Virus record (IMG/VR): IMGVR_UViG_3300044832_000053 | Span: 1-64,000 of that record | From: a virus | Direction: 5' to 3' (one strand) | Length of the DNA: 64,000 bases | Shown here: positions 35,861 through 46,533 of the stretch, one piece after another | Layout of the letters: each line of letters starts with the position of its first letter | Numbering within the stretch: position 1 is the stretch's first letter | Position numbers and translations under genes: made by a program | The notes under the pieces: model-generated | Databases searched by the model: none | Told to the model about the DNA's origin: nothing | Seen by the model: the letters and a program-made list of their open reading frames with translations, nothing else

Positions 35861-37078
35861 TCAGACGCCCGTCTGCTGGCGGTAGCGGGCCACCAGGGAG
35901 GCCCGGCCCTGGTGGGCGGCGGCGGCGTCCTCGCCAGGCTCGGCCCCGAGGGCGGACCCCAGCTCGTTGCCGAGGTCCAGCATCTTGGCCATCTTCCCGA
36001 ACTCGGAGAAGATCTGGCGGACGATCGCGCCCGCGTCCACCTCGGTGCCGTTGGACAGCTCCACGGTGCGCCCGGTGCCCTCCAGCAGCGGCCGGGCCAG
36101 GTCGCAGATGTAGGGCGCGATGCCGTAGGTGGCCATGAACCCGTGGCGCTCGGTCTCGTACCGCTGGGCGTCGAGCTGGTCGGTGACCGCACGGAGCTGG
36201 CGCTCGTTCTCCTCGCTCCGGGCGTTGGCCAGCTCGATGGCGAGCTGGGCGGACCCCGAGAGCTGGGCCCCGGCCCCGGCCTCCTGACCGGCGAGCAGCT
36301 CCGCGAGCTGCTCGTCAGACAGGGGACCGCTGTCGGCCGGGCCGTCGAGGGCCTCGGCTGCGGCGATCAGCTCGGCCAGCTCCTCGTCGGTCAGCTCGGC
36401 GTCCGCCGCCGGGCCAGCCGTGGGACCGGCCGGTGGCGTGGTGTCGAGGCTGGCGATGAGCTTATCCATCTTGTCGTCGGGAACGTCCAGGAGCCTGGCC
36501 AGCCGGGCCTGCTGCTCCGCGTTCAGCTCGGGCATCATGTCTCCTTCTGAATCGGGAGCGTCAAACGTGGCGTCGGAAAGGTCGATGACCGGGAGGTCAT
36601 CGTTGGCAAGGTCCACCTGCTGCCACGGCCCGAGGCCAGGCAGGCGGGGGTCGAGGGTGCCGAGGACGTGCTGGATGGCGGCCGGGAAGAACTGGCCGTC
36701 GGCGCGCTGGTAGTCCTCCACGATCCGGGCACTCACGCCCAGCCGTGGGTTGTCCTTGAGGATCTTGGAGCCCTCGTCCGTGGTGGACAGGGTGAGCCAG
36801 AGCCCGTCGGGCTCGGCGGTCATGGCGGCTACTTCCCCGCCGAAATTGCGGACATCGTTATTGTGCTTGTTGTCCGCCGACGCGAGCTGGAAGGGCACCT
36901 GGCCATAGGCCCGCTGGTGGAATGTCTCAGCCAGCCCGGCCAGGTAGTCCGCCGTGAAGTCGATCTTGCGGCCCTTGTAGTCGATGGAGCCCACCGGCAG
37001 CACCCGCTTGCGCCAGAAGCGCGGCCCGGCGACCCTGGCCGGGGAGCGGGTGTACGGCGTGAGGACGGCGGCTGTCAC
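35861..37078 (-). CDS. Mu gpI-like capsid maturation protease with C-terminal scaffold
   Basis: LPVG.I, KH, DGLW, GVSARI, HVLGTLDPRLPGL; acidic helical C-terminus. Confidence 0.82.
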   Translation of the reverse strand: MTAAVLTPYTRSPARVAGPRFWRKRVLPVGSIDYKGRKIDFTADYLAGLAETFHQRAYGQVPFQLASADNKHNNDVRNFGGEVAAMTAEPDGLWLTLSTTDEGSKILKDNPRLGVSARIVEDYQRADGQFFPAAIQHVLGTLDPRLPGLGPWQQVDLANDDLPVIDLSDATFDAPDSEGDMMPELNAEQQARLARLLDVPDDKMDKLIASLDTTPPAGPTAGPAADAELTDEELAELIAAAEALDGPADSGPLSDEQLAELLAGQEAGAGAQLSGSAQLAIELANARSEENERQLRAVTDQLDAQRYETERHGFMATYGIAPYICDLARPLLEGTGRTVELSNGTEVDAGAIVRQIFSEFGKMAKMLDLGNELGSALGAEPGEDAAAAHQGRASLVARYRQQTGV

Positions 37079-37710: not shown

Positions 37711-37868
37711 TCGCCCTCCCCGGCCACGGCCCGCCTGACCAGGTCATCGGCCATCTTGGCGGCCAGGTCAGTGGCCATTCCCTTGCTGATGAGCAGTTTC
37801 CCCAGGATCTCGGTCGCCCTGGCCTGCTGGTCGTCCGTGGCGTCTGCGGCCCGGGGCAGGGGAGCCAT
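37707..37868 (-). CDS. Small hypothetical protein
   Basis: 53 aa; overlaps both neighbours; hand-translated. Confidence 0.5.
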   Translation of the reverse strand: MAPLPRAADATDDQQARATEILGKLLISKGMATDLAAKMADDLVRRAVAGEGE

Positions 37869-38425
37869 CACAGCTTCTTCGCGGCGTCGGTGAGTTCCAT
37901 GATCACTAGCGGGCCGAACGAGGCACCCAGGCCCAGCAGGAGCGGAGCGCCGAACGTGGTGGCCAGGGCAACCAGGATCGCGGCGGCCACGATGGTCCCG
38001 ATGTGGACAGCGAGCTTGATCCGGGCCTTCCTGGCTTCCTTCTCGGCAGCCAGCCTCTCCAGCTTCTGCTTGTCCATCTCGATCGCAGCGAGCTTTTTCG
38101 CCACGTCTGAGGCATGTGCCTCGCGGGCGGCTTCCTCGGCCCTGACTTCCTTGAGGACGGGGGCCTGCATGGCCGTGATGGCTATCAGGGACTGGAGCTG
38201 TGCCGCTCCCTGGGCCCTGGCAGCCTGGCTGGCCATGGCAGCGCGCGGGGTTGAGCCGCCCTTGATCCAGCGGCCGTGTGAATCCCGCAGCTCCAGTTCC
38301 ATCTGGGCCAGCTCAATGGCTTCCCGCTCTGTCTCAAGAACGTCAACAGCCATGAGAAACGGGAGGCCAGCGGCGGTGAGGGTGCGGAAATCACGGAGCT
38401 GTCGCTGCGTGATCTGCGTGGGCAT
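37868..38425 (-). CDS. Membrane protein carrying the IELA...ELRDSHGRW tag
   Basis: Tag, then coiled coil, then two C-terminal hydrophobic helices. Confidence 0.7.
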   Translation of the reverse strand: MPTQITQRQLRDFRTLTAAGLPFLMAVDVLETEREAIELAQMELELRDSHGRWIKGGSTPRAAMASQAARAQGAAQLQSLIAITAMQAPVLKEVRAEEAAREAHASDVAKKLAAIEMDKQKLERLAAEKEARKARIKLAVHIGTIVAAAILVALATTFGAPLLLGLGASFGPLVIMELTDAAKKL

Positions 38426-38464
38426 CAGTGGTGACCCTCTCACTTGATCACTGATGCTACGCGC

Positions 38465-38737
38465 CTAGCCTGCTGTATGCATGCCCACAGAAGCGGCAGT
38501 AGCCAGGACACGGTACTGATCTGCCGTGATCCGGCCCGCGTTGAATGCCAGCTCGACCTCGTACCATGATCCTTCACCGGGCCACGGGCGTCCAGTCAGA
38601 TCGCTGGCAATTGTCTCGTGATACCCGGCCGCCGGGGTGGTCTTTTCCCAGCTCAGGTGCGCGAATTTCACCGCTGCCTCAGCCAGGTCCATGTTCCCCG
38701 AGGTCAGGGCATCAAGGATGTCCCTCACATTGCCCAT
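38465..38737 (-). CDS. Small helical protein, candidate antitoxin to the zeta domain
   Basis: Overlaps the end of the zeta-containing ORF; function inferred from position. Confidence 0.55.
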   Translation of the reverse strand: MGNVRDILDALTSGNMDLAEAAVKFAHLSWEKTTPAAGYHETIASDLTGRPWPGEGSWYEVELAFNAGRITADQYRVLATAASVGMHTAG

Positions 38738-41700
38738 GAGAACTCCAGGCCCTGGCCGGAGCTGGACACGAGCTGCGGCTCGCGGCCGGTCACGGAGTTG
38801 TCGAACTTGTCCCAGGAGTCGAACAATGGCAGGGCCATGGCGAATGTCATCTCGTTCACCGAGATCTCCGGGTCTGAGGTTCCCCAGATCTTCACGATGT
38901 CCGCCGGGGGGACATGCCGCCCGCCGAGCCCCTTGCCCGCCAGCCAGCTCTCCAGCCCCGCGCGGTAGCGGGCCAGCGCCCGGTCGATCGAGACCTGGAG
39001 CGGGACGTCAACATAGACGCCGTGCACATGCCCGTAGCCAGCCGACCGCAGCCGGGCGATGTGCCCGGCCATGTCATCGGCCGGGAGCATGGTCAGGTCC
39101 ACGATGATGTTCTTGCGCATCGCCATCGAGCGGTCCAGCGCCATCTGGGCCAGGTGATGTGCCTCGTCGCTCACCAGCGGGCTGGCTTCCATGGGTGACA
39201 GGTTCCCGACGTGGGGCACCAGCCCGCGCTTGGCCAGCTCGGCCTTGAAATCATCCGGGGCGATGGGCAGGTAGTCGTCCATGTTCATGCCGGGCAGCTT
39301 GCCCAGTGCGGTGGTCTTGCCCGCGCCTGGCAGGCCGCCGCCGAAGATCGCCCGGCCCCCGTTGGGCACTGCGGCCGAGCGCGCCATGACCGCGTCGATG
39401 ATCTCCTTGTGGATCGCGGCGCGCTCGGGGGTGTAGATCTGCCCGTCCCCGCTCACGGACTGGGTAACCGCCGTGTTCTGCCCGGCCGCGAAGGCGTCAG
39501 TCAGGGTCTGCTCCACTACGTGCTGCCGTCCCGTGAACTCGGCGTCCGTCAGCGGCCGGGCTGCCTGGCCGCTGATCCCGTGCGCGACCGTGGGTGATTC
39601 CTCGTAGTCGAGGTTGTCGTCTTCCTCGTCCCAGCGGTGGGTGTAGGCGGACGGCGTGATGTACGGGCCAGCGGAGATCAGGCCCTTGTCCCCGGCCGGG
39701 GGCGGCCCGGCCTTGACCGGCTTCCAGCCGTGCGTGTAGACGAAGGGCGTGCCCGGGATGTGACGGCCATGGCCGTCGCCGGTCAGGTCTAGCTGGGCGC
39801 TGACCGTGGCAGTGCCGCGACCGAGTCCGCCAGGGCCCGTGCGATCTCCAGCCGCCTGGCCTCCGGCAGCTCGCGATAGCTGGACGGGACCGGCCCCGCC
39901 ACCACCTTGGGCGTGGGCTCCGCTGGCTGCTCCACCGCTACCTCCTGCCTGGATCTCCCGGCCGCCGGTCACGTCCCAGATAGCCGCCTGGCCGCGCTTC
40001 CTGCCCTCCGCGAGCGCCTGCTCCCGGCTGGCAATGTTGTCGCTCGGCTCCAGCCAGAGCTTACCGTCGTGCACCCATCCGCCCAGGTAGGTGTCTTTCC
40101 CGGCGAACGCCTGGTGCTCGCTCATGATCATGCCGTCAATGGCACGGGCCAGCTTCTCCCGGTCATCGAGGATCTCAGCCGGGAAGGTGTGCGTGTGCCC
40201 GGCCTGGGCAACCATGAACCCGCTGGCTGGCTTGCCGCCGGTCCGCATGCTGACCGAGAATCCTCCCCGGTTCTGCGCGGCCGAGGCTGCCTTGCTGCGG
40301 ATGGTGAACGGGCCGGGCCGGGGCGGCCCGGGTGAGGGGCGGAACATGCCCGCGATGGCCTGCTGCATCCGGGGGGGTTCCCCGCTGGGCAGGTTCACCC
40401 AGCGGCCCCGGAAGTCACGGGGCTCGTGAGCACTGAACGCCAGGTCGATGCCCGCTGCCTGGCCGCTCAGTGTGGTAGTCCCCGGGACCACCGGAACGTG
40501 ATGGGCAGCGGCGAACTTCTTCCAGATCCCCCAGTCCCGGGCGGTGTTGGCGGTGCGCCCGCGCTCCCGGGCCGTGACCGCTGCCGCGTCGGCCGCCTGG
40601 TTGGCGGCCTGCTGGTGCAGCCAGGTGATCGCCTGGAGCTGGGATGGGGTGACCAGGTGACCCTGCCGGGACAGCTCCGCAGCCGCCAGCCGGTAGGTGT
40701 CCGCGACGTGCTCGTAGTAGCGCTTGTCCCCGATGGGCGAGGCGTCGATCTCCTCCGTGGTCACCCGGTGCCCGGCCGCGACGGACAGGGCGTGCCGGTC
40801 AATGACCACCTGGCCGAGCCGGTCGGAGGATGCGTCCCCGCCGTGAGCGATCAGCTTCGCGAACGCCCGGGTCTTGGGGGACTTGAGGGCGTCGATACTG
40901 CCGGTGTCCATGGCCCGCTGCGCGGCCCGCTGCTCGGGGCGGCTGATGAAGCCCTCACCGGGGCCCAGGGCGCGGCCCAGCTCCAGCGAGCGGGCCGCGT
41001 TGAACAGGTTCTCCGGCCAGTTCACCTGCGGGGAGAACGCGGCCAGCACCGCCGCGCCCTTCTCCGCATCCCCGCCCGCGATGGACCGGGCCACCATCTG
41101 TGCGTCGGCGTACCAGCGCATCCCCTGGGCCTTCTCAGCCGGGGCAGCCGCGCTGTAGGCGGCAACGATGTTCGCCGGGCTGACCGGCACCGACTTGAAG
41201 AACGGGTGATCCGCCGGGCTCACGATGGAGCTGCGCGGGTTGGCCAGCCGGGAGGGGTCCGGGGCCGCGTACTCATGGCCGCTCACGCTCCACCGGCCAT
41301 GAGGGTCCCGCAGCTCGGCGGGGTTGTAGTGCCAGCCGCCCGCCAGGTCAACGCTGAACTCCCGGAACTGGCCCAGCGCCACCCGGTCCGCGTGCGTGTA
41401 TCCCTTCACCGGCTTGTAGGAGTGGATGAACTCCGGGGGCAGCGGCTTGCGGATCGCCCGGTATCCCATGTGGCTGGTGCTGGGATACAGGAACTCAGCT
41501 TCCCTGGCCTTGGGCACCCGGATGTCGATCAGCATGCCCGGCTTAGACGGCCATTCAAGATCATCGTGCCGCTCGTACGCGACGATCTGCGACTCGTTGC
41601 TGTCTGGGGACAGCACTGGGTCGTACCCGTCATACCCGGCTGCGTGCAGGCCCTGGTCCCGGATCGACCGGGCGGCCTCCGGCGTGGTGCCGTGGAAGAA

Positions 41701-43980
41701 CTGGGTGTAGCTGGACGGGTCAGCCTCCGGCCCGCCCCGGGTCCACTCGCCATGCTCGTTGCGCAGCTCGTGCACCCAGTTGCCTGCGCTGGGCCTGGGG
41801 CTGGGGCTGCCGGAATCCTTCTTATTCCACCAGCTCAGCTCAACACTGAACTCCCCGCCGCCGGGTCCCAGCTCACCGGCCCGCTCCATCATGTCCGAGT
41901 ACCACATCTGGTGACCCAGCCGCTCGAACTGGGGCTCCAGCTTGGCCAGCTCCGCCCGGATCTTGTTGGCGTAGTCCTGCGGGATGTTCGAGGGCTCCTC
42001 ATTCCAGAACGTGGTAGAAGCCGCGCCATCTCCGGCATATATGAAGCCCGAGCTGTTGTCGATGGCCACCGGGCTGCCGGACGGGGTGACCATCCAGTTA
42101 TTGGAGTGGCGGTCCGGGTTCTGGATCAGGAAGTCCAGCAGCCCGATCTTCTGGCCGTCCTCTGACTGGGTCAACTCGCTCTGGGCTCCGTAAGGTGCAT
42201 CAGCCAGGTACCGCGAGGCGGTCGTGCCCGGGACAAAGCCCATGACCTCCTCAGCAGGATCACCCCCGCTGACGCGGGCGATGGGCGGTGAGGGTGCCCC
42301 GATGGCCTGGGCGACGTAGTAGGCCAGCTCGTCGGTGTCCGCCATCTCCTCATAACCGGAGTGGTAGATCTTGTGCACCACCTTCTCGCCATTGGGCAGG
42401 GTCACGATGTCCACATTGCCCTGGACCCCCTGCTGAGGGTGCATGGACTCGCCCTCTGCGAGCTGATCCGGGGTAGCGATCTGCTCCAGGTGCTGTACGG
42501 CCGGGCTGGACGGTCCCAGCCCTCCCGGCTGCGGCATGCCCGGCAGCAGGTATTGCTTGACGCCCGTCGTGACCATCACCCCGGGGGCGGTCTGCCGGGG
42601 AGGCTCAGGCAGTCCCGCCAGGATCTTGGACGCCGGGACCGGGGTGCCCAGCAGGCCGTTGACCCGCCTGACCAGTTCAGGTCCGGCCTGGTACTCCCCG
42701 CCCGCGACAAACTGCCGGGCAAGCTGCTGGGCCCGGCCCTCGTTGATCGCCTGGTGCCGCTCCGCTCCTGCGGCGCGGGCGGATACCCGGTGCTCCATGA
42801 CCGCAGCCCAGGTCTGCCCCTGGATACTGGGCGGGATCTGGGATAGCTGCTGGGCCTGGAGGACGTTACCCCCGTTCCGCCAGTCCACCAGGTAGCGGTT
42901 CCCGTCATCGGATTCGACCACCACGTTGCTGCTGGTCATGGCGGTGACCCGGCCTACCCCGCCATGGCCGTCGCGGGCCATGTCCCCGAGCTTCGGCTCC
43001 CGGTTGCCGGGCAGGAAGGCGGCCCCGGCCCCGCTGCCGTGCGGGCCGATGAATTCCCACTGCTTCCCGCCCGGGGATGGGCTGGGCGTCTCCGCCTGCG
43101 GGTTGAATGCGGGCCGGGGCGTGCCCATCTTCATCCCGCCCAGTCGCGGGCCAGCCTGGCTGAGCGGGACGGTGTGCACGGGGGCACCACCGTTGCGCCA
43201 GTCCACCAGGTGACGCTTCTGGTCGTTGGCGTCGATCACCGCATGGCCGCCGCCTTTGTTGACGACCCTCCCCCAAACGCCCTGGCTGTTGCGTGCCTGG
43301 TCATTGACCTGCGGCTCCGCCACTACCTGGGAGCCACCCCGGATGAACTGCCAGCGGCCGAGGATCGCGGGCCCGGCGACCTCATCCGCCAGCAGCGCCC
43401 GGTGCAGCCTGGATTCCTGGTTCAGGGCACTTACCTGGGCAGCGGTGCCTGAAACCTGCCGGAAATCAGCACCGTGCACGGGCTGGAGCTGGGCCGCGAC
43501 CGAGTCCGGTGCCTGGCCGTGTATTCCCGGGTGTGCGCCCCGGATGATCTGGCCCTGCTCATCCACTGTCCAGGTGTCGAGATTCTCCCGGCGGTTGTTG
43601 TGCTGGACCCGCCGCAGTCTCTGGGCGTTGACCAGCCGGTCCTCGCCTATCTGATCCCGGATCGACTCCGGCCCCATCCCACGGGCCCGCAGGACCCGGG
43701 CCCGGTTAATCTCCGCCCCGTCGCGGAGGCCCTTGGGGGTCGGGGCCTGCTTCATCCGGTCTGCCCGCTCCTGGGCCGCCGCCGCGTCATGCTTGGCCTG
43801 CCACATGATCCCGTTGATGGCGGTCGGGCCGTAACCCCGTGCCGCGAGTGCAACGCGCTTGCGCTGGTCCTCCAGGGCCGTGGCGGAGAATCCGGGCCTC
43901 TTCGCCCAGCGCCCGTGGGTGTCACGGAGCTGATTGGGCTGGAAGTGCCAGGCCAGGTCCACCTGCTCGCTGATGCTCAC
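38725..43980 (-). CDS. 1751-aa polyvalent effector protein: tandem SH3/KOW-like, PI3/4K-HipA-like kinase, ART-like, HhH glycosylase-like (DUF7178-like), unknown domain, zeta toxin
   Basis: DFLIQNPDRHSNN..IDNS; FFHGT..AARSI..QGL; WY..AAFSPQ..PKT..IDRHA..QAITW; GGLPGAGKTT..PDDFK..GRHVP. Confidence 0.85.
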   Translation of the reverse strand: MSISEQVDLAWHFQPNQLRDTHGRWAKRPGFSATALEDQRKRVALAARGYGPTAINGIMWQAKHDAAAAQERADRMKQAPTPKGLRDGAEINRARVLRARGMGPESIRDQIGEDRLVNAQRLRRVQHNNRRENLDTWTVDEQGQIIRGAHPGIHGQAPDSVAAQLQPVHGADFRQVSGTAAQVSALNQESRLHRALLADEVAGPAILGRWQFIRGGSQVVAEPQVNDQARNSQGVWGRVVNKGGGHAVIDANDQKRHLVDWRNGGAPVHTVPLSQAGPRLGGMKMGTPRPAFNPQAETPSPSPGGKQWEFIGPHGSGAGAAFLPGNREPKLGDMARDGHGGVGRVTAMTSSNVVVESDDGNRYLVDWRNGGNVLQAQQLSQIPPSIQGQTWAAVMEHRVSARAAGAERHQAINEGRAQQLARQFVAGGEYQAGPELVRRVNGLLGTPVPASKILAGLPEPPRQTAPGVMVTTGVKQYLLPGMPQPGGLGPSSPAVQHLEQIATPDQLAEGESMHPQQGVQGNVDIVTLPNGEKVVHKIYHSGYEEMADTDELAYYVAQAIGAPSPPIARVSGGDPAEEVMGFVPGTTASRYLADAPYGAQSELTQSEDGQKIGLLDFLIQNPDRHSNNWMVTPSGSPVAIDNSSGFIYAGDGAASTTFWNEEPSNIPQDYANKIRAELAKLEPQFERLGHQMWYSDMMERAGELGPGGGEFSVELSWWNKKDSGSPSPRPSAGNWVHELRNEHGEWTRGGPEADPSSYTQFFHGTTPEAARSIRDQGLHAAGYDGYDPVLSPDSNESQIVAYERHDDLEWPSKPGMLIDIRVPKAREAEFLYPSTSHMGYRAIRKPLPPEFIHSYKPVKGYTHADRVALGQFREFSVDLAGGWHYNPAELRDPHGRWSVSGHEYAAPDPSRLANPRSSIVSPADHPFFKSVPVSPANIVAAYSAAAPAEKAQGMRWYADAQMVARSIAGGDAEKGAAVLAAFSPQVNWPENLFNAARSLELGRALGPGEGFISRPEQRAAQRAMDTGSIDALKSPKTRAFAKLIAHGGDASSDRLGQVVIDRHALSVAAGHRVTTEEIDASPIGDKRYYEHVADTYRLAAAELSRQGHLVTPSQLQAITWLHQQAANQAADAAAVTARERGRTANTARDWGIWKKFAAAHHVPVVPGTTTLSGQAAGIDLAFSAHEPRDFRGRWVNLPSGEPPRMQQAIAGMFRPSPGPPRPGPFTIRSKAASAAQNRGGFSVSMRTGGKPASGFMVAQAGHTHTFPAEILDDREKLARAIDGMIMSEHQAFAGKDTYLGGWVHDGKLWLEPSDNIASREQALAEGRKRGQAAIWDVTGGREIQAGGSGGAASGAHAQGGGGAGPVQLSRAAGGQAAGDRTGPGGLGRGTATVSAQLDLTGDGHGRHIPGTPFVYTHGWKPVKAGPPPAGDKGLISAGPYITPSAYTHRWDEEDDNLDYEESPTVAHGISGQAARPLTDAEFTGRQHVVEQTLTDAFAAGQNTAVTQSVSGDGQIYTPERAAIHKEIIDAVMARSAAVPNGGRAIFGGGLPGAGKTTALGKLPGMNMDDYLPIAPDDFKAELAKRGLVPHVGNLSPMEASPLVSDEAHHLAQMALDRSMAMRKNIIVDLTMLPADDMAGHIARLRSAGYGHVHGVYVDVPLQVSIDRALARYRAGLESWLAGKGLGGRHVPPADIVKIWGTSDPEISVNEMTFAMALPLFDSWDKFDNSVTGREPQLVSSSGQGLEFSWAM

Positions 43981-44198
43981 GGGTGCACCCAGACGTACCC
44001 GTTGCTCCAGCCGTCCAGGGACTCGAACGCGATCTCCGCATCACCGCCAGCCCGGCGCAGCGCTGAGTCCGCGATGGCCTGGCTGGACTCGCTGCTGCCG
44101 GTCAGGCGGTCCGTGTCCAGCCTGATGGTGCCGAGCTGGCCCTGCTCATCGAAGACCCCCAGCGTCAGCGGCTCACCGGCCTGGCTGGAGATGCTCAC
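43977..44198 (-). CDS. Small acidic protein
   Basis: GTGA overlaps at both ends; starts MSISSQ like the giant ORF (MSISEQ). Confidence 0.65.
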   Translation of the reverse strand: MSISSQAGEPLTLGVFDEQGQLGTIRLDTDRLTGSSESSQAIADSALRRAGGDAEIAFESLDGWSNGYVWVHP

Positions 44199-46114
44199 AG
44201 CTTGCTGGCCGCGAAAGTGAGCTGGGCGGCCTGGGTACGGAGCTGGGAGATCTGCTTGCGGACCGCCAGGATACGGCTGGTCAGGTTAGCCGTGGCACTG
44301 GCCTTCGTGGTCTTGGACGCGGCCCTGGTCACGGCCTTCTTCGCGCTCGCGGCCGTGGTCTTCTTCGAGGTGGCAGCCTTCCTCGCCGCTGCCGCCGTGG
44401 TCTTCTTCGACCCGGTGGTGTGCTGCTTGGTGTGCGCCGCGTGCTGGGCCCTGAGCTGTGCTTCCAGCCCCTTGAGAACGATGGACAGTGCGTTGGCCTT
44501 CTGCCGGTCCGCCTTGGCCCGGGATAGCAGCTTGCGCTTCTTCACCTGCTTCGAGCCCCCGGCCGGGGCCGCGCCACCCGCGCCCCAGGTCCCGCCAGCG
44601 GTCCGGGGCTCAGCCGGGTTGAATCCGGCCAGCTCGACGGACTCATACCACTCATTGGAATGGCTGGAATCCTGGGCATGAGCCCGTGCGGACATCGAGG
44701 CCAGCCCGGCCAGGGCCTTCACCGCAGCCGCCCTGACCTCGGGGTGCACGCTGCCGCCTCCGGCCGCCCACTTGCGGATCGAGCCCCAGGTGATCGCCGT
44801 GGCCGACCCCTCGCTGTGCCCGGCCCGGATCAGTGCGTTGCGGACGTTCTGGAAGTAGGGCGGGAACTCCATGCCCTTGACGTGGTAGGCCCCCGGCCCG
44901 CCTGGCTTCCCGATCGGGGCGGGCGTGACCGCCAGCCGGGCGGTGTCGGCGGACATCTCCAGGGCCTGGGAACTGATGGTTGAGTACCCCTGCGGAGGGG
45001 GTGCCTGGGTGTGGGCAGCCATGGAGTACGGGGCGGTCATCCCCGGCCCGGTGACCCGGTAGTCATGAGTTATCGCGCCCACCCCGGCGGGCACGCCTGC
45101 CAGGCTGGCGCGGACCGCCCGGACATCCTGGACCGCCAGCGGGCTGGTGTGCCGGGCGGCCCACTCGGCCGAGTCCAGCGCCTTGCGTGCGTGCCCCATC
45201 TTGCGCATCGCGGTGAACCGGGCGGCGGCGCGCATCGAGGTGCGCAGCATCTCAGCCGCCGGTCCGGGACTTGCGTTGTTGCGCAGCTCGCCCTGGGGCT
45301 GGTACTTGTCACCGACGCCCTCGATGGCCCGGATATGCGAGAACCCGCCGGGTGCACCGGAGTAGCTGAATGAGCTGTGCCCGCCCGGCCCGAGGACCCA
45401 CCGCCCGTCCGGGCCCCGGAGCTGGTCAGGGTGGAAGGCCAGCTCGATGCTGTAGTCCTGCTGGCCGGTGCCGGTTCCGTTCAGGTTCGCGATGTCAAAA
45501 CCCCCGGGCTGGTCCCCGGCCGCCCCGGGCCGTATCCCGCTGCCTTTCACGTCGGCCCTGGCCGCCGCCTGCTGGTCGCGGTACGCCTGGTTGGATGCCT
45601 CAGCGTCCTCGATGTCCTTGATCAGCAGGCAGTGCCGGTTGATCATGTCCATGTGCCGCTTGGCGTGGGCGTGCCCGTCATCGTCGGTGATGCCGTGCCG
45701 GTACAGCGACAGCGGGGCCAGGGTGTGCATCGCGGCGGCCAGGTGCCTCCCGGCCGACTCGGTCTTGCCCCGGTGCATCGAGTTCGCCGCGTCCCGCAGG
45801 TGATCCCCGACGCCCAGCTCGGGCAGCACCTGGTCGGTGCGATGGGCCACGCCCCGGATGGATGTGGCCACGGCCTGCTTCATGCCGCCGGTCGCGATCA
45901 GCCTGCTGCCTACGCGGCCAGGCGCACCAGGGTTGGCAGGAGCGGCGCTCCCCTGAACGGGGCCACCGGGTGGCACCGGCAGTGCGGGTGCACCGTTCCC
46001 GGGTACCCGATTGCCGGGGGGATTGCGGCCAGGAAGTTGCGGCCGTCCGCTGCCTTGCACTCGGGCGACGTCCGGGCGTCGTGTACTGACTGCCATCCGA
46101 GAACCTTTCCCCAT
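44195..46114 (-). CDS. Multi-module head-region protein with repeated tags and Lys/Ala-rich C-terminus (start uncertain)
   Basis: IELAFHPDQLRGPDGRW, VELAGFNPAEPRTAGGTW; 5' end overlaps MuF gene. Confidence 0.75.
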   Translation of the reverse strand: MGKGSRMAVSTRRPDVARVQGSGRPQLPGRNPPGNRVPGNGAPALPVPPGGPVQGSAAPANPGAPGRVGSRLIATGGMKQAVATSIRGVAHRTDQVLPELGVGDHLRDAANSMHRGKTESAGRHLAAAMHTLAPLSLYRHGITDDDGHAHAKRHMDMINRHCLLIKDIEDAEASNQAYRDQQAAARADVKGSGIRPGAAGDQPGGFDIANLNGTGTGQQDYSIELAFHPDQLRGPDGRWVLGPGGHSSFSYSGAPGGFSHIRAIEGVGDKYQPQGELRNNASPGPAAEMLRTSMRAAARFTAMRKMGHARKALDSAEWAARHTSPLAVQDVRAVRASLAGVPAGVGAITHDYRVTGPGMTAPYSMAAHTQAPPPQGYSTISSQALEMSADTARLAVTPAPIGKPGGPGAYHVKGMEFPPYFQNVRNALIRAGHSEGSATAITWGSIRKWAAGGGSVHPEVRAAAVKALAGLASMSARAHAQDSSHSNEWYESVELAGFNPAEPRTAGGTWGAGGAAPAGGSKQVKKRKLLSRAKADRQKANALSIVLKGLEAQLRAQHAAHTKQHTTGSKKTTAAAARKAATSKKTTAASAKKAVTRAASKTTKASATANLTSRILAVRKQISQLRTQAAQLTFAASKL

Positions 46115-46533
46115 CTGTAAGCCGCGCCGTCGATGGCCGACCCGGCCATGATGCGCCCCTGGTTGGCCTCGAAGTGCTGGCCGAAGTAGCGGGATTCGGT
46201 CTCGGCCAGCCGGTCAAGCGCCTCGGCACGTGGCTCGCCCCGGCTGGCGGCCCCGGCCAGGCCGTCCTGGATGCGGTGGGCGGCGGCCACGAAGAACGCT
46301 GAGCGCCGGGCGATGTTGGCGTGCGCAGCCCATCGGGTGGCCGGGCCGACGCCCTCGATCCGGTCAGGCGGGTAGCGGGTCTCGATGGCGATCACCGCGC
46401 GCAGCGCCGGGCCGCTGATGCCCGCGCCATGGAACGTCCCGGCGATCTGCGTGAAGATGCCAGCCGCCGACGGGTAGGCCGCGAACGCCCGCGCTGCGGT
46501 AAGCGCGAGCATGGCATCGCTGCGGGCGCTCAT
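45910..46533 (-). CDS. MuF (phage minor head / gp30-like) protein
   Basis: W.SVHDARTSPEC...G...PG.VHPHCRC; after portal. Confidence 0.85.
   Translation of the reverse strand: MSARSDAMLALTAARAFAAYPSAAGIFTQIAGTFHGAGISGPALRAVIAIETRYPPDRIEGVGPATRWAAHANIARRSAFFVAAAHRIQDGLAGAASRGEPRAEALDRLAETESRYFGQHFEANQGRIMAGSAIDGAAYRWGKVLGWQSVHDARTSPECKAADGRNFLAAIPPAIGYPGTVHPHCRCHPVAPFRGAPLLPTLVRLAA

What the first reader, a model, noticed from the sequence alone, without database searches (positions are those of the whole stretch)
38725..43980. 1751-aa multi-effector protein in the head module
Seen, N to C: tandem SH3/KOW-like repeats; kinase-like domain (~41860-42460, NPDRHSNN..IDNS); ART/Tpt1-like domain (~41400-41710, HGT); HhH glycosylase-like DUF7178-type domain (~40600-41200); unknown domain (~39950-40270); zeta-toxin P-loop kinase (~38760-39560). 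Established: polyvalent proteins of phages are implicated in host takeover and counter-defence, and canonical zeta toxins phosphorylate UDP-GlcNAc. Inference: a co-injected arsenal acting on proteins, nucleic acids and cell-wall precursors.
Basis: partly seen in the sequence, partly recalled or inferred. Interest (0 to 1): 0.82.

Follow-up and report, generated by a model that had tools for sequence, protein, structure and literature searches.

The report
Tagged multi-enzyme phage head cargo protein
A soil actinobacterial phage encodes, between its portal/MuF genes and its head protease, a 1751-residue protein made of five separately folding modules (two kinases, an ADP-ribosyltransferase fold, two domains of unknown function), each led by the same ~30-residue peptide tag; this looks like a plug-and-play way to load exchangeable enzymes into the capsid, but loading, cutting and injection are inferred, not shown.

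Summary

The main added result is a bipartite ~30-aa tag (h-[DE]-L-[AG]-[WF] … R-[DG]-x-[HD]-G-[RKE]-W). It precedes every module, heads stand-alone versions of the same modules in about 30 syntenic IMG/VR phages, and also marks two neighbouring head-module genes. The head cassette is Mu-like: portal, MuF and a gpI-like protease/scaffold.

Best reading: capsid-loaded, probably protease-separated, co-injected cargo, that is, a new tag-coded variant of the known phage polyvalent proteins. Packaging, cleavage and injection remain inferred. The scan's earlier notes on this system are all on this same genome, none on other DNA.

The parts
38725..43980 (-). whole 1751-aa ORF (P0001)
43900..43980 (-). 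tag 1 (aa 1-27), at the very N-terminus: h-D-L-A-W … L-R-D-x-H-G-R-W
   Evidence: the same leader opens relatives P0003, P0005 and P0008
43306..43899 (-). N-terminal region aa 28-225, with two short 'ARG-x-GP' repeats; unassigned
   Evidence: no Pfam hit; conserved in relatives
   Evidence: PDB profile search gives only E ~0.9 to eL14, so the fold is not verified
42796..42969 (-). beta-rich repeat 2 (aa 338-395), 39% identical to repeat 1
41836..42453 (-). PI3/PI4-kinase-like catalytic core (aa 510-715): K537, D623-R-H-x-x-N628, D641
41731..41850 (-). tag 2 (aa 711-750)
   Evidence: disordered in the AF2 model
41395..41721 (-). minimal ART-fold module (aa 754-862), invariant H763-G-T, Y783, D787-P788, E-x-E-[YF]-L-x-P
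41272..41358 (-). tag 3 (aa 875-903)
40474..41271 (-). DUF7178 module (aa 904-1169), all-helical, pLDDT above 90
40387..40467 (-). tag 4 (aa 1172-1198)
39940..40290 (-). domain 'G' (aa 1231-1347), alpha/beta, pLDDT 80-95, invariant G-F-S-V-S, H-T-H-T, Y-L-G-G-W-V-H-D; function unknown
39706..39939 (-). Gly-rich disordered linker plus divergent fifth tag (L-D-L-T-G-D-G-H-G-x-H … Y-x-H-G-W-x-P)
   Evidence: (shared with P0004)
38758..39426 (-). zeta-toxin-family P-loop kinase (aa 1519-1741): K1555, D1576, D1628, T1630, R1671, R1688
38728..38754 (-). C-terminal half-tag (…G-L-E-F-S-W-A-M, then stop)
44195..46114 (-). neighbouring 639-aa head-module protein carrying two of the same tags; its true start is probably downstream of the listed one
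37868..38443 (-). neighbouring 191-aa protein with one tag, a coiled coil and a hydrophobic C-terminus
35861..37078 (-). 405-aa Mu gpI-like putative prohead protease/scaffold; invariant H72, S116, H137; conserved [VIL]-[DE]-L-[AST] sites
45910..46533 (-). MuF-like head morphogenesis gene, separate from the cargo protein

Best explanation
P0001 is a genuine phage polyvalent cargo protein in a Mu-like head-assembly cassette (portal, MuF, gpI-like protease/scaffold, capsid protein) of an uncultivated soil actinophage.

It is a string of five independently folding modules:
1. N-terminal region, two beta-rich repeats and a PI3/PI4-kinase-like kinase.
2. A ~110-aa minimal ADP-ribosyltransferase fold.
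3. DUF7178.
4. Domain G.
5. A zeta-toxin-family kinase.

Each module is introduced by a conserved, intrinsically disordered ~30-aa bipartite tag.

Shown:
- The modules, their folds and their catalytic motifs.
- The same tag heads stand-alone copies of the same modules in related phages.
- Modules are fused, split and reshuffled between tags.
- The tag also marks two neighbouring head genes.

Inferred:
- The tag is an address label that recruits each module into the procapsid, by analogy with the T4 capsid-targeting sequence.
- Its first half, h-[DE]-L-[AG], is a site at which the gpI-like prohead protease separates the modules.
- The released enzymes are ejected with the DNA and act early on the host. 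The zeta kinase would act on a nucleotide-sugar or NAD-type substrate. The ART module would act on a protein or nucleic acid using NAD+. The PI4K-like kinase would act on a protein or lipid. DUF7178 and G would act together, probably on or near the incoming DNA.
For: Reality of the gene.

Head context:
- Portal_Mu E 2.9e-30, TerL, and MCP phrog_1650 at 4.5e-68.
- MuF.
- In the p405 family, 4 of 19 members hit PF10123 Mu-like_Pro, best 2.9e-8, with invariant H/S/H.

Modules:
- Kinase: 730 homologues; 35 of 41 hit PF00454; catalytic residues near-invariant.
- DUF7178 and G: confident AF2 domains.

Tag:
- In a six-frame scan of the genome, the motif falls within coding genes only in three head-module genes (the other three regex matches lie in off-frame, non-coding reading frames).
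- The core regex occurs 147 times in 184 related proteins, against 2.0 in shuffles. 46 of these lie within the first 35 residues.
- The tag always sits at protein N-termini or between modules.
- About 30 IMG/VR loci share the synteny. In them the modules are either fused or encoded as separate genes, each starting with the tag: L005 t-KIN, L033 t-ZETA, L031 and L046 t-MPT, L061 t-DUF7178.
- The tags are disordered in both AF2 models.

Sites: [VIL]-[DE]-L-[AST] sites occur at the tags, at the C-terminus and at three conserved positions of the protease/scaffold family (17, 22 and 18 of 27 sequences). They are absent from TerL, portal, MuF and MCP.

Precedents:
- Head-packaged polyvalent proteins and zeta-MuF fusions (PMC5512222; PMC9503650).
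- Prohead-protease removal of targeting propeptides, and the T4 capsid-targeting sequence (PMC10052503).
Against: - No direct evidence of virion packaging, cleavage or ejection. The phage is known only from metagenomes.
- The window's own p405 has no direct Pfam or PHROG hit. Its protease identity is transitive.
- The 4-residue half-site is short. One copy lies inside the zeta Walker-B strand.
- Fused versus split gene forms could reflect ordinary gene fusion and fission without any proteolysis.
- Most relatives end in a zincin-like HELxH module, the candidate processing peptidase in the polyvalent-protein literature. This genome has none. So processing may differ from the relatives or be absent.
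- The tag was not found in any cultured phage or in the literature.
- No substrate of any module is known.
Confidence: 0.55

Rival explanations
1. An uncleaved polyvalent protein. The tags are not cut sites but repeated flexible docking or linker elements, for example multivalent anchoring to portal, inner capsid, scaffold or DNA. The protein would be packaged and ejected as one 190-kDa chain.
For: The tags are disordered and repeated. [quoted passage not shown] This genome has no zincin-like peptidase module.
Against: Internal tags look exactly like the N-termini of stand-alone proteins. Split and fused forms are interchangeable in syntenic loci. The half-site is shared with conserved junctions in the protease/scaffold family. 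The protein ends in a half-tag.
Confidence: 0.2
2. A late protein that is not packaged. The enzymes would act inside the producing cell, for example on host shut-off, DNA or cell-wall remodelling before lysis, or exclusion of competitors. The tags would serve another purpose such as regulated degradation or assembly of an enzyme complex.
For: In about 38 of 45 actinomycete genome loci, DUF7178 and G occur as an untagged gene pair with no head genes nearby. So these modules can work without a capsid. Small DUF7178 genes sit in non-structural arms of cluster-A-type mycobacteriophages.
Against: The position between MuF and protease/scaffold/MCP is strictly conserved in about 30 loci. Tagging is restricted to head-module genes. 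Untagged cellular versions contrasted with tagged phage versions suggest the tag is the phage-head-specific addition.
Confidence: 0.1
3. A MuF-type polymorphic toxin used for inter-bacterial competition, with the zeta module as the exchangeable C-terminal toxin and the overlapping 90-aa gene as its immunity protein.
For: It has a C-terminal zeta toxin domain with a small overlapping downstream gene. MuF lies nearby. MuF polymorphic toxins are an established family (PMC5576092, listed).
Against: MuF is a separate gene two genes upstream, not the N-terminus of this protein. The variable parts are internal as well as C-terminal. The 90-aa protein has no homologue next to zeta modules of relatives. 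No integrase or lysogeny evidence was sought.
Confidence: 0.07
4. An artefact: an assembly chimera or a spurious long ORF in high-GC DNA.
For: High-GC genomes produce long spurious ORFs. The source-run Logan assembly breaks near 43030.
Against: GC3 is 0.87. There are five homologous modules with confident folds. An independent contig at 98.9% identity keeps the frame intact with an excess of synonymous changes. The break is bridged in two other runs.
Confidence: 0.01

Closest known systems
Phage and conjugative-element polyvalent proteins (Iyer, Burroughs, Anand, de Souza, Aravind 2017, PMC5512222)
   Same: One polypeptide joins several unrelated enzymatic domains. It is encoded beside portal and MuF. 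ART and zeta-like kinase domains are part of the repertoire. Relatives carry a zincin-like peptidase module. DUF7178 also occurs on a Streptomyces plasmid fused to an Arr-type ART.
   Different: A single conserved ~30-aa tag precedes every module and also heads stand-alone versions. A text search of that paper found no mention of it, and no paper holds the motif strings searched. Word searches of the paper also found no mention of a phosphatidylinositol kinase, KptA/Tpt1 or a glycosylase; DUF7178 and domain G were not searched for in it, and 'DUF7178' occurs in no held paper. This genome lacks the peptidase module.
T4 internal proteins and Alt, with the capsid-targeting sequence and gp21 processing
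   Same: Enzymes, including an ART, are loaded into the prohead through a short N-terminal peptide and are trimmed by the prohead protease after an acidic residue. They are injected with the DNA (PMC10052503; PMC9503650).
   Different: This is analogy only. There is no sequence relation. Here the signal is repeated internally in a polyprotein, its second half (R-D-x-H-G-R-W) would stay on the cargo, and the head is Mu-like rather than T4-like. Nothing has been shown experimentally.
MuF polymorphic toxins (Jamet et al. 2017, PMC5576092)
   Same: A toxin-type enzymatic domain is genetically tied to the MuF head-morphogenesis gene, and the toxin modules are exchangeable.
   Different: MuF is a separate gene. 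There are several modules rather than one C-terminal toxin, and there is no demonstrated immunity gene.
Zeta/PezT/AvrRxo1 kinases (PDB 1gvn, 2p5t, 4z8q)
   Different: E116 is Asp here. It is embedded at the end of a 1751-aa protein. It has no epsilon/PezA-type antitoxin. The substrate is unknown: UDP-GlcNAc for zeta/PezT (PMC5512222) and NAD for AvrRxo1 (my own knowledge) show that the family is not tied to one substrate.
Tpt1/KptA RNA 2'-phosphotransferase (PDB 8tg4, 9ld4)
   Different: It has only about 110 aa. It has no N-terminal RNA-binding lobe, so it cannot carry the complete Arg-His-Arg-Arg tetrad. PF01885 gives no match.
Type II/III phosphatidylinositol 4-kinases (PF00454; PDB 4wtv, 6gl3)
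   Same: The catalytic loop D-R-H-x-x-N, the metal-binding Asp and the ATP Lys are present. The family profile hits PI4K2B at E 1.3e-4.
   Different: The core is only about 200 aa with no helical or other accessory domains. It is a phage protein. Whether the substrate is lipid or protein is unknown.

Membership tests
Polyvalent proteins (Iyer et al. 2017) | Two or more unrelated catalytic domains in one polypeptide of a phage or conjugative element | tested here: met
   Kinase, ART fold and zeta kinase, plus two further domains; phage record
Polyvalent proteins (Iyer et al. 2017) | Genomic association with virion head or packaging genes (MuF, portal) | tested here: met
   conserved in about 30 loci
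Polyvalent proteins (Iyer et al. 2017) | Zincin-like metallopeptidase module for processing | tested here: not met
   Absent from P0001 and from the whole genome, but present in most relatives. It is a frequent feature of the class, not an obligatory one.
Polyvalent proteins (Iyer et al. 2017) | Packaged in the virion and injected | not testable with these tools
   Needs virion proteomics or infection assays
Zeta toxin (PF06414) | Pfam score above the gathering cut-off | tested here: met
   53.8 bits against 22.3; 57.3 bits on the isolated segment
Zeta toxin (PF06414) | Walker A Lys, catalytic Asp (zeta D67), and Arg158/Arg171 equivalents | tested here: met
   K1555, D1576, R1671 and R1688 from the alignment to 1gvn_B
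Zeta toxin (PF06414) | Fold closer to zeta/PezT than to other P-loop kinases | tested here: met
Zeta toxin (PF06414) | Cognate epsilon/PezA-type antitoxin | tested here: inconclusive
   A 90-aa overlapping downstream gene exists, but it has no family and no homologues in the relatives
Zeta toxin (PF06414) | UDP-GlcNAc 3'-kinase activity | not testable with these tools
   Biochemical assay needed
PI3_PI4_kinase (PF00454) | Pfam score above the gathering cut-off | tested here: inconclusive
   23.9 bits in the whole protein and 27.7 bits on the isolated segment, against a cut-off of 27.1. 35 of 41 relatives match, best 2.6e-14.
PI3_PI4_kinase (PF00454) | Catalytic loop DRHxxN, metal-binding Asp, ATP-binding Lys | tested here: met
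   D623, R624, N628, D641 and K537 are near-invariant in the family
PI3_PI4_kinase (PF00454) | Lipid-kinase accessory architecture and lipid substrate | not tested
   The kinase module was not folded; there is no assay
Tpt1/KptA (PF01885) | Two-lobed enzyme with an N-terminal RNA-binding lobe carrying the Arg-His-Arg part of the catalytic tetrad | tested here: not met
   The module is about 110 aa between two tags and matches only chain residues ~89-181 of Tpt1. PF01885 has no match in the genome.
ART superfamily (H-Y-E type) | ART fold | tested here: met
   All top Foldseek and VIA hits are ARTs
ART superfamily (H-Y-E type) | NAD-binding His on strand 1, Tyr on strand 2, catalytic Glu | tested here: inconclusive
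   H763 (H-G-T) is invariant. Y783 and E828/E830 are conserved candidates, but no residue-level superposition was available.
Tox-ART-HYD1 (PF15633) and ART-PolyVal (PF18760) | Profile match | tested here: not met
   No match at E up to 10 in the genome. The only lead is an ESM-feature hit at 0.89.
HhH-GPD DNA glycosylases (PF00730) | Profile match, HhH hairpin and catalytic Asp | tested here: not met
   No PF00730 match. hhalign of DUF7178 against actinomycete Nth/MutY gives probability 0.2%.
HhH-GPD DNA glycosylases (PF00730) | Shared fold | tested here: inconclusive
MuF polymorphic toxins | N-terminal MuF domain in the same polypeptide | tested here: not met
   MuF is a separate ORF at 45910-46533
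Mu gpI prohead protease (PF10123), for the neighbour p405 | Profile match | tested here: inconclusive
   The window's own protein has no hit. 4 of 19 aligned family members match, best 2.9e-8. H72, S116 and H137 are invariant.

The most novel reading that the evidence does not exclude
The ~30-aa bipartite tag is a portable cargo code for an HK97-fold, Mu-like capsid. Any module that carries it, whether as its own gene or fused in a polyprotein, would be recruited into the procapsid, cut free at h-[DE]-L-[AG] by the gpI-like protease, and delivered with the DNA. A whole clade of soil actinophages could then swap injected enzymes like cassettes. One of those enzymes, the PI4K-like kinase, may target the phosphatidylinositol lipids that are characteristic of actinobacterial membranes.
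Probability: 0.3. Interest if true: 0.85.

Novelty: new variant of a known kind. Interest (0 to 1): 0.66.

Why it matters
Proteins injected by phages are the first viral molecules a cell meets. They are increasingly recognised as counter-defence factors, yet outside T4, P1, P22 and N4 little is known about how cargo is chosen and loaded.

This locus offers a simple, sequence-readable rule (one tag, one module). The rule is conserved across dozens of uncultivated actinophages and shows clear natural module swapping.

If the tag is a loading and processing signal, three things follow. It would explain how such phages diversify their injected arsenal. It would allow injected proteins to be predicted from sequence alone. 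It would also give a handle for loading chosen proteins into actinophage capsids.

The locus also links two domains of unknown function, DUF7178 and G. They form a functional pair shared by phages, plasmids and chromosomal mobile regions of Actinomycetota. Finally, it adds a PI4K-like kinase and a minimal Tpt1-like ART to the list of candidate phage effectors.

Tried and rejected
Contexts were obtained through the search for related loci instead.
- Megablast of the head module against cultured phages found no match.
- Literature searches for the tag motif strings and for DUF7178 found nothing. A search for phage PI4K-like kinases found nothing relevant.
- A homologue search with the ART segment alone found nothing. 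ART relatives came only from the representative search.
- phmmer of the zeta segment against PDB found nothing. The profile search later succeeded.
- PDB profile searches for DUF7178, G, p405 and the beta-rich repeat gave nothing significant.
- Global MAFFT alignments of long multidomain relatives put non-homologous residues into the ART columns. They were not used for folding. A dedicated 7-sequence alignment was used instead.
- Complex prediction of the zeta module with the 90-aa downstream protein gave no verdict: score 0.18 against a mark of 0.32. This says nothing either way.
- My own reading that DUF7178's P-K-T…V-I-D-R-H-A mirrors the EndoIII G-R-K-T-A-N…V-D-T-H motif was not borne out by hhalign, and I withdraw it.
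- Pfam families PF01885, PF15633, PF18760 and PF00730 gave no match in the genome.
- The tag peptide was not found by tblastn in 50,697 cultured phage records.
- No zincin-like module exists in this genome.
The multidomain model's hit lists were filled by the zeta domain. BFVD shows 120-140-aa actinophage proteins that probably match G.
- No look-alike stretch exists elsewhere in the scan's index.


Full report
**1. The observation**

The minus-strand ORF 38725-43980 exists as described: GTG start, 1751 aa. Its GC3 is 0.87, typical of the genes of this record.

The window is part of a single 78,925-bp, 68.6% GC virus record that CheckV rates complete.

The gene order on the minus strand is:
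- possible small terminase
- TerL
- Mu-type portal (PF06074, 2.9e-30)
- a MuF-like gene (PF04233, 1.3e-5; several head-morphogenesis PHROGs)
- a 639-aa protein
- a 73-aa protein
- the 1751-aa protein
- 90-aa, 191-aa, 54-aa and 211-aa proteins
- a 405-aa protein
- a 163-aa scaffold/decoration-like protein
- the major capsid protein (phrog_1650, 4.5e-68)

Of 19 aligned members of the 405-aa family, four match PF10123, the Mu gpI protease/scaffold (best 2.9e-8). The family has invariant His72, Ser116 and His137. The head cassette is therefore Mu-like, and the large ORF sits in an insertion between F and I.

**2. Not a chimera**

IMG/VR contig L001 is 98.9% identical over 16.5 kb. It keeps the ORF without indels, with 29 synonymous and 19 non-synonymous codon changes.

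Logan contigs of four soil-metagenome runs from four study codes tile the ORF. The only break in the likely source run falls near 43030, between the two internal repeats. It is bridged in two other runs.

**3. The modules**

*(a) Zeta kinase (aa ~1519-1741).*
- Pfam Zeta_toxin scores 2e-14.
- The AF2 domain has pLDDT 80-94.
- Foldseek gives PezT at 8e-6, zeta at 1.7e-5 and AvrRxo1 at 2.8e-5.
- A profile of the module hits zeta toxin at 1.1e-12. The printed alignment places K1555, D1576, D1628 (for E116), T1630, R1671 and R1688 on zeta K46, D67, E116, T118, R158 and R171.
- It looks catalytically competent. The substrate is open.

*(b) Kinase-like module (aa 510-715).*
- The Pfam match to PI3_PI4_kinase is borderline in this protein: 23.9 bits in context and 27.7 bits alone, against a cut-off of 27.1.
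- A full HMMER scan of 1.84 billion representatives found 730 relatives, many in giant proteins.
- 35 of 41 short relatives match PF00454, best 2.6e-14.
- The family profile hits type II and III PI4-kinases on the catalytic loop at E ~1e-4.
- K537, D616, D623-R624, N628 and D641 are near-invariant.

*(c) ART module (aa 754-862).*
- Only six relatives were found, and they share invariant H-G-T, Y, D-P and an E-x-E-[YF]-L-x-P stretch.
- The AF2 model of aa 715-915 has a confident core (pLDDT 78-91) and disordered tags.
- Every leading Foldseek hit is an ART.
- It is not a Tpt1 family member. It has no N-lobe, and PF01885, PF15633 and PF18760 give no match.

*(d) DUF7178 (aa 904-1169).*
- Pfam scores 4e-37.
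- It is all-helical with pLDDT above 90.
- PF00730 does not match.
- hhalign against Nth/MutY from actinomycete genomes is negative.
- "Glycosylase-like" is therefore a weak lead, not a finding.

*(e) Domain G (aa 1231-1347).*
- It is a confident alpha/beta fold.
- Invariant motifs are G-F-S-V-S, H-T-H-T and Y-L-G-G-W-V-H-D.
- It matches phrog_17808.
- It has no PDB or named-cluster match.

*(f) The two beta-rich repeats and the N-terminal 200 residues.*
- They are conserved in relatives.
- They remain unassigned. The SH3/KOW call could not be tested.

**4. The tag**

A six-frame scan of the genome for R-[DNE]-x(1,2)-G-[REK]-[WHF] hits eight times. Five of the hits are in three consecutive head-module genes: the 639-aa protein's motif fell outside that regex and was seen on translation. 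The other three hits lie in off-frame, non-coding reading frames.

The counts per gene are:
- 639-aa protein: two tags
- 1751-aa protein: four clear tags, one divergent tag, and a C-terminal half-tag
- 191-aa protein: one tag

The motif is bipartite: [ST]-I-[SG]-x-Q-h-[DE]-L-[AG]-[WF], then 3-8 residues, then [EP]-x-R-[DG]-x-[HD]-G-[RKE]-W-h-[RK]-x-G.

In 184 related proteins gathered by three searches, the core occurs 147 times, against 2.0 in shuffles (maximum 6). 46 copies lie within the first 35 residues of a protein.

Mapping modules and tags shows that a tag always stands at a protein's N-terminus or between two modules. Each module type keeps its own tag flavour.

Among 80 IMG/VR loci with DUF7178, about 30 share the same synteny from TerL to MCP. 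In these, the same modules appear fused in different orders or as separate genes that each begin with the tag. Examples are L005 t-KIN, L033 t-ZETA, L031 and L046 t-MPT, L061 t-DUF7178, and L027 t-ART-t-DUF7178-t-ZETA-t.

Most relatives end in a zincin-like H-E-L-x-H … E-E-G-F-T-E module. This genome has none.

**5. Link to the protease**

The four-residue half-site [VIL]-[DE]-[LF]-[AST] occurs in the following places:
- at all tags and at the C-terminus of the large protein
- once inside the zeta Walker-B strand
- at the tags of the 639-aa and 191-aa proteins
- once in the 90-aa protein
- once near the C-terminus of the possible small terminase
- five times in the 405-aa protein

It does not occur in TerL, portal, MuF or MCP.

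In 27 distinct members of the 405-aa family, the site is conserved at three aligned positions (17, 22 and 18 of 27). One of these, the h-h-[DE]-L-A-N site, lies at the start of the C-terminal coiled-coil part.

Prohead proteases of the T4 and phiKZ type remove N-terminal propeptides from head and ejection proteins. The T4 capsid-targeting sequence both targets proteins to the prohead and permits their processing (PMC10052503). That those proteases cut after Glu in short motifs is my own background knowledge; the passages retrieved do not state the motif.

This is the basis for the mechanism I propose. It is inference.

**6. Wider distribution**

In genome collections, DUF7178 relatives are almost all in Actinomycetota: Pseudonocardiaceae and Streptomyces.

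In about 38 of 45 loci, an untagged G gene (131-210 aa) directly precedes an untagged 271-aa DUF7178 gene. In Kutzneria this pair lies beside DUF4192, DUF932, a T2SSF-like gene and a CBASS pair. A Streptomyces plasmid carries a 1244-aa Arr-type-ART plus DUF7178 protein.

So DUF7178 and G are a functional pair of actinobacterial mobile DNA, and the tag is the addition specific to the phage head versions.

The closest cultured capsids are only ~35-40% identical: Gordonia phages, M. abscessus prophages, Streptomyces phages, and a "Microcystis" phage with 74% GC. Streptomyces phage LazerLemon has, after MuF, a 1175-aa protein with a 639-aa-protein-like N-terminus and a C-terminal R-S-E ART, but no tag. 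The tag was not found in cultured phages.

**7. Comparison with what is known**

Head-associated multi-enzyme polyvalent proteins, head-packaged ARTs and zeta-kinase fusions to MuF are described (PMC5512222; PMC9503650). The finding as worded is therefore a member of a known kind.

New here, as far as the searched literature goes, are:
- the uniform tag code
- its use on both fused and stand-alone cargo
- the conserved clade
- the module set: PI4K-like kinase, minimal Tpt1-like ART, and the DUF7178+G pair

I rate it a new variant of a known kind.

**8. Confidence**

| Claim | Confidence |
|---|---|
| Real multi-enzyme head-module protein | ~0.95 |
| Virion cargo | ~0.6 |
| Tag is a loading and/or processing signal | ~0.45 |
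| Combined statement | 0.55 |

The scan's earlier notes on the tags and the protease idea were read. All are on this same genome, and they agree with what I had already seen and then tested across relatives.

Noticed in passing
window 45910-46114 (overlap of the MuF ORF and the 639-aa ORF): The MuF-like ORF and the 639-aa tagged ORF overlap by about 200 nt in different frames. In several relatives the MuF and p639-like ORFs also overlap (L006, L007, L011).
   Followed up: no
window 37868-38443 (-): The 191-aa protein has one tag, a coiled coil and a hydrophobic C-terminal stretch. A tagged small protein occupies the same position after the polyprotein in many relatives. It could be a membrane-active ejection protein.
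   Followed up: partly
window 38465-38737 (-): The 90-aa gene overlaps the end of the zeta module by 13 nt. It contains a half-tag-like E-V-E-L-A-F-N. It has no homologue in any relative or family library.
   Followed up: partly
L084-L127 (actinomycete genomes), e.g. L111:7394-8792: Untagged G and DUF7178 genes are adjacent in about 38 of 45 loci, mostly Pseudonocardiaceae. In Kutzneria they sit next to DUF4192, DUF932, a T2SSF-like gene and a CBASS (SMODS and SAVED) pair.
   Followed up: partly
L091:5994-9728 (Streptomyces sp. cg35 plasmid pRLB1-9.1): A 1244-aa plasmid protein joins an Arr-type rifampin-ART-like domain to DUF7178. This is a polyvalent protein on a plasmid.
   Followed up: no
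L081:4730-8257 (Streptomyces phage LazerLemon gp8): This 1175-aa protein after MuF has an N-terminus like the 639-aa protein, a long Lys/Ala/Glu-rich middle and a C-terminal R-S-E ART. It carries a [YF]-x-H-G-W-I-P motif twice, which recurs in the divergent fifth tag of P0001.
   Followed up: partly
L082 (Microcystis phage Mwe-JY05, PP395638.1): This is the closest cultured capsid (39.6%) and p405 homologue (43%). The head-module stretch examined (L082, 21 kb) is 73.7% GC, which is odd for a Microcystis host (low-GC by my own knowledge) and makes the host assignment look doubtful. Its 1669-aa head protein has no tags.
   Followed up: no
relatives P0003-P0006, P0027, P0041, P0056, P0063, P0066, P0100: They share a C-terminal ~300-aa zincin-like module (H-E-L-x-H-G … I-E-E-G-F-T-E-L … W-G-H-Y) with no Pfam family. 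It is often duplicated, and it is absent from this genome.
   Followed up: partly
window ~43030: The Logan assembly of the probable source run breaks between the two beta-rich repeats. Other runs bridge the break.
   Followed up: yes
L034, L040, L044-L080 (IMG/VR contigs up to 166 kb): DUF7178 also sits inside 800-2000-aa proteins of much larger phage contigs. In these proteins the tag core regex and the module searches seeded from P0001 and P0003 found nothing else.
   Followed up: no
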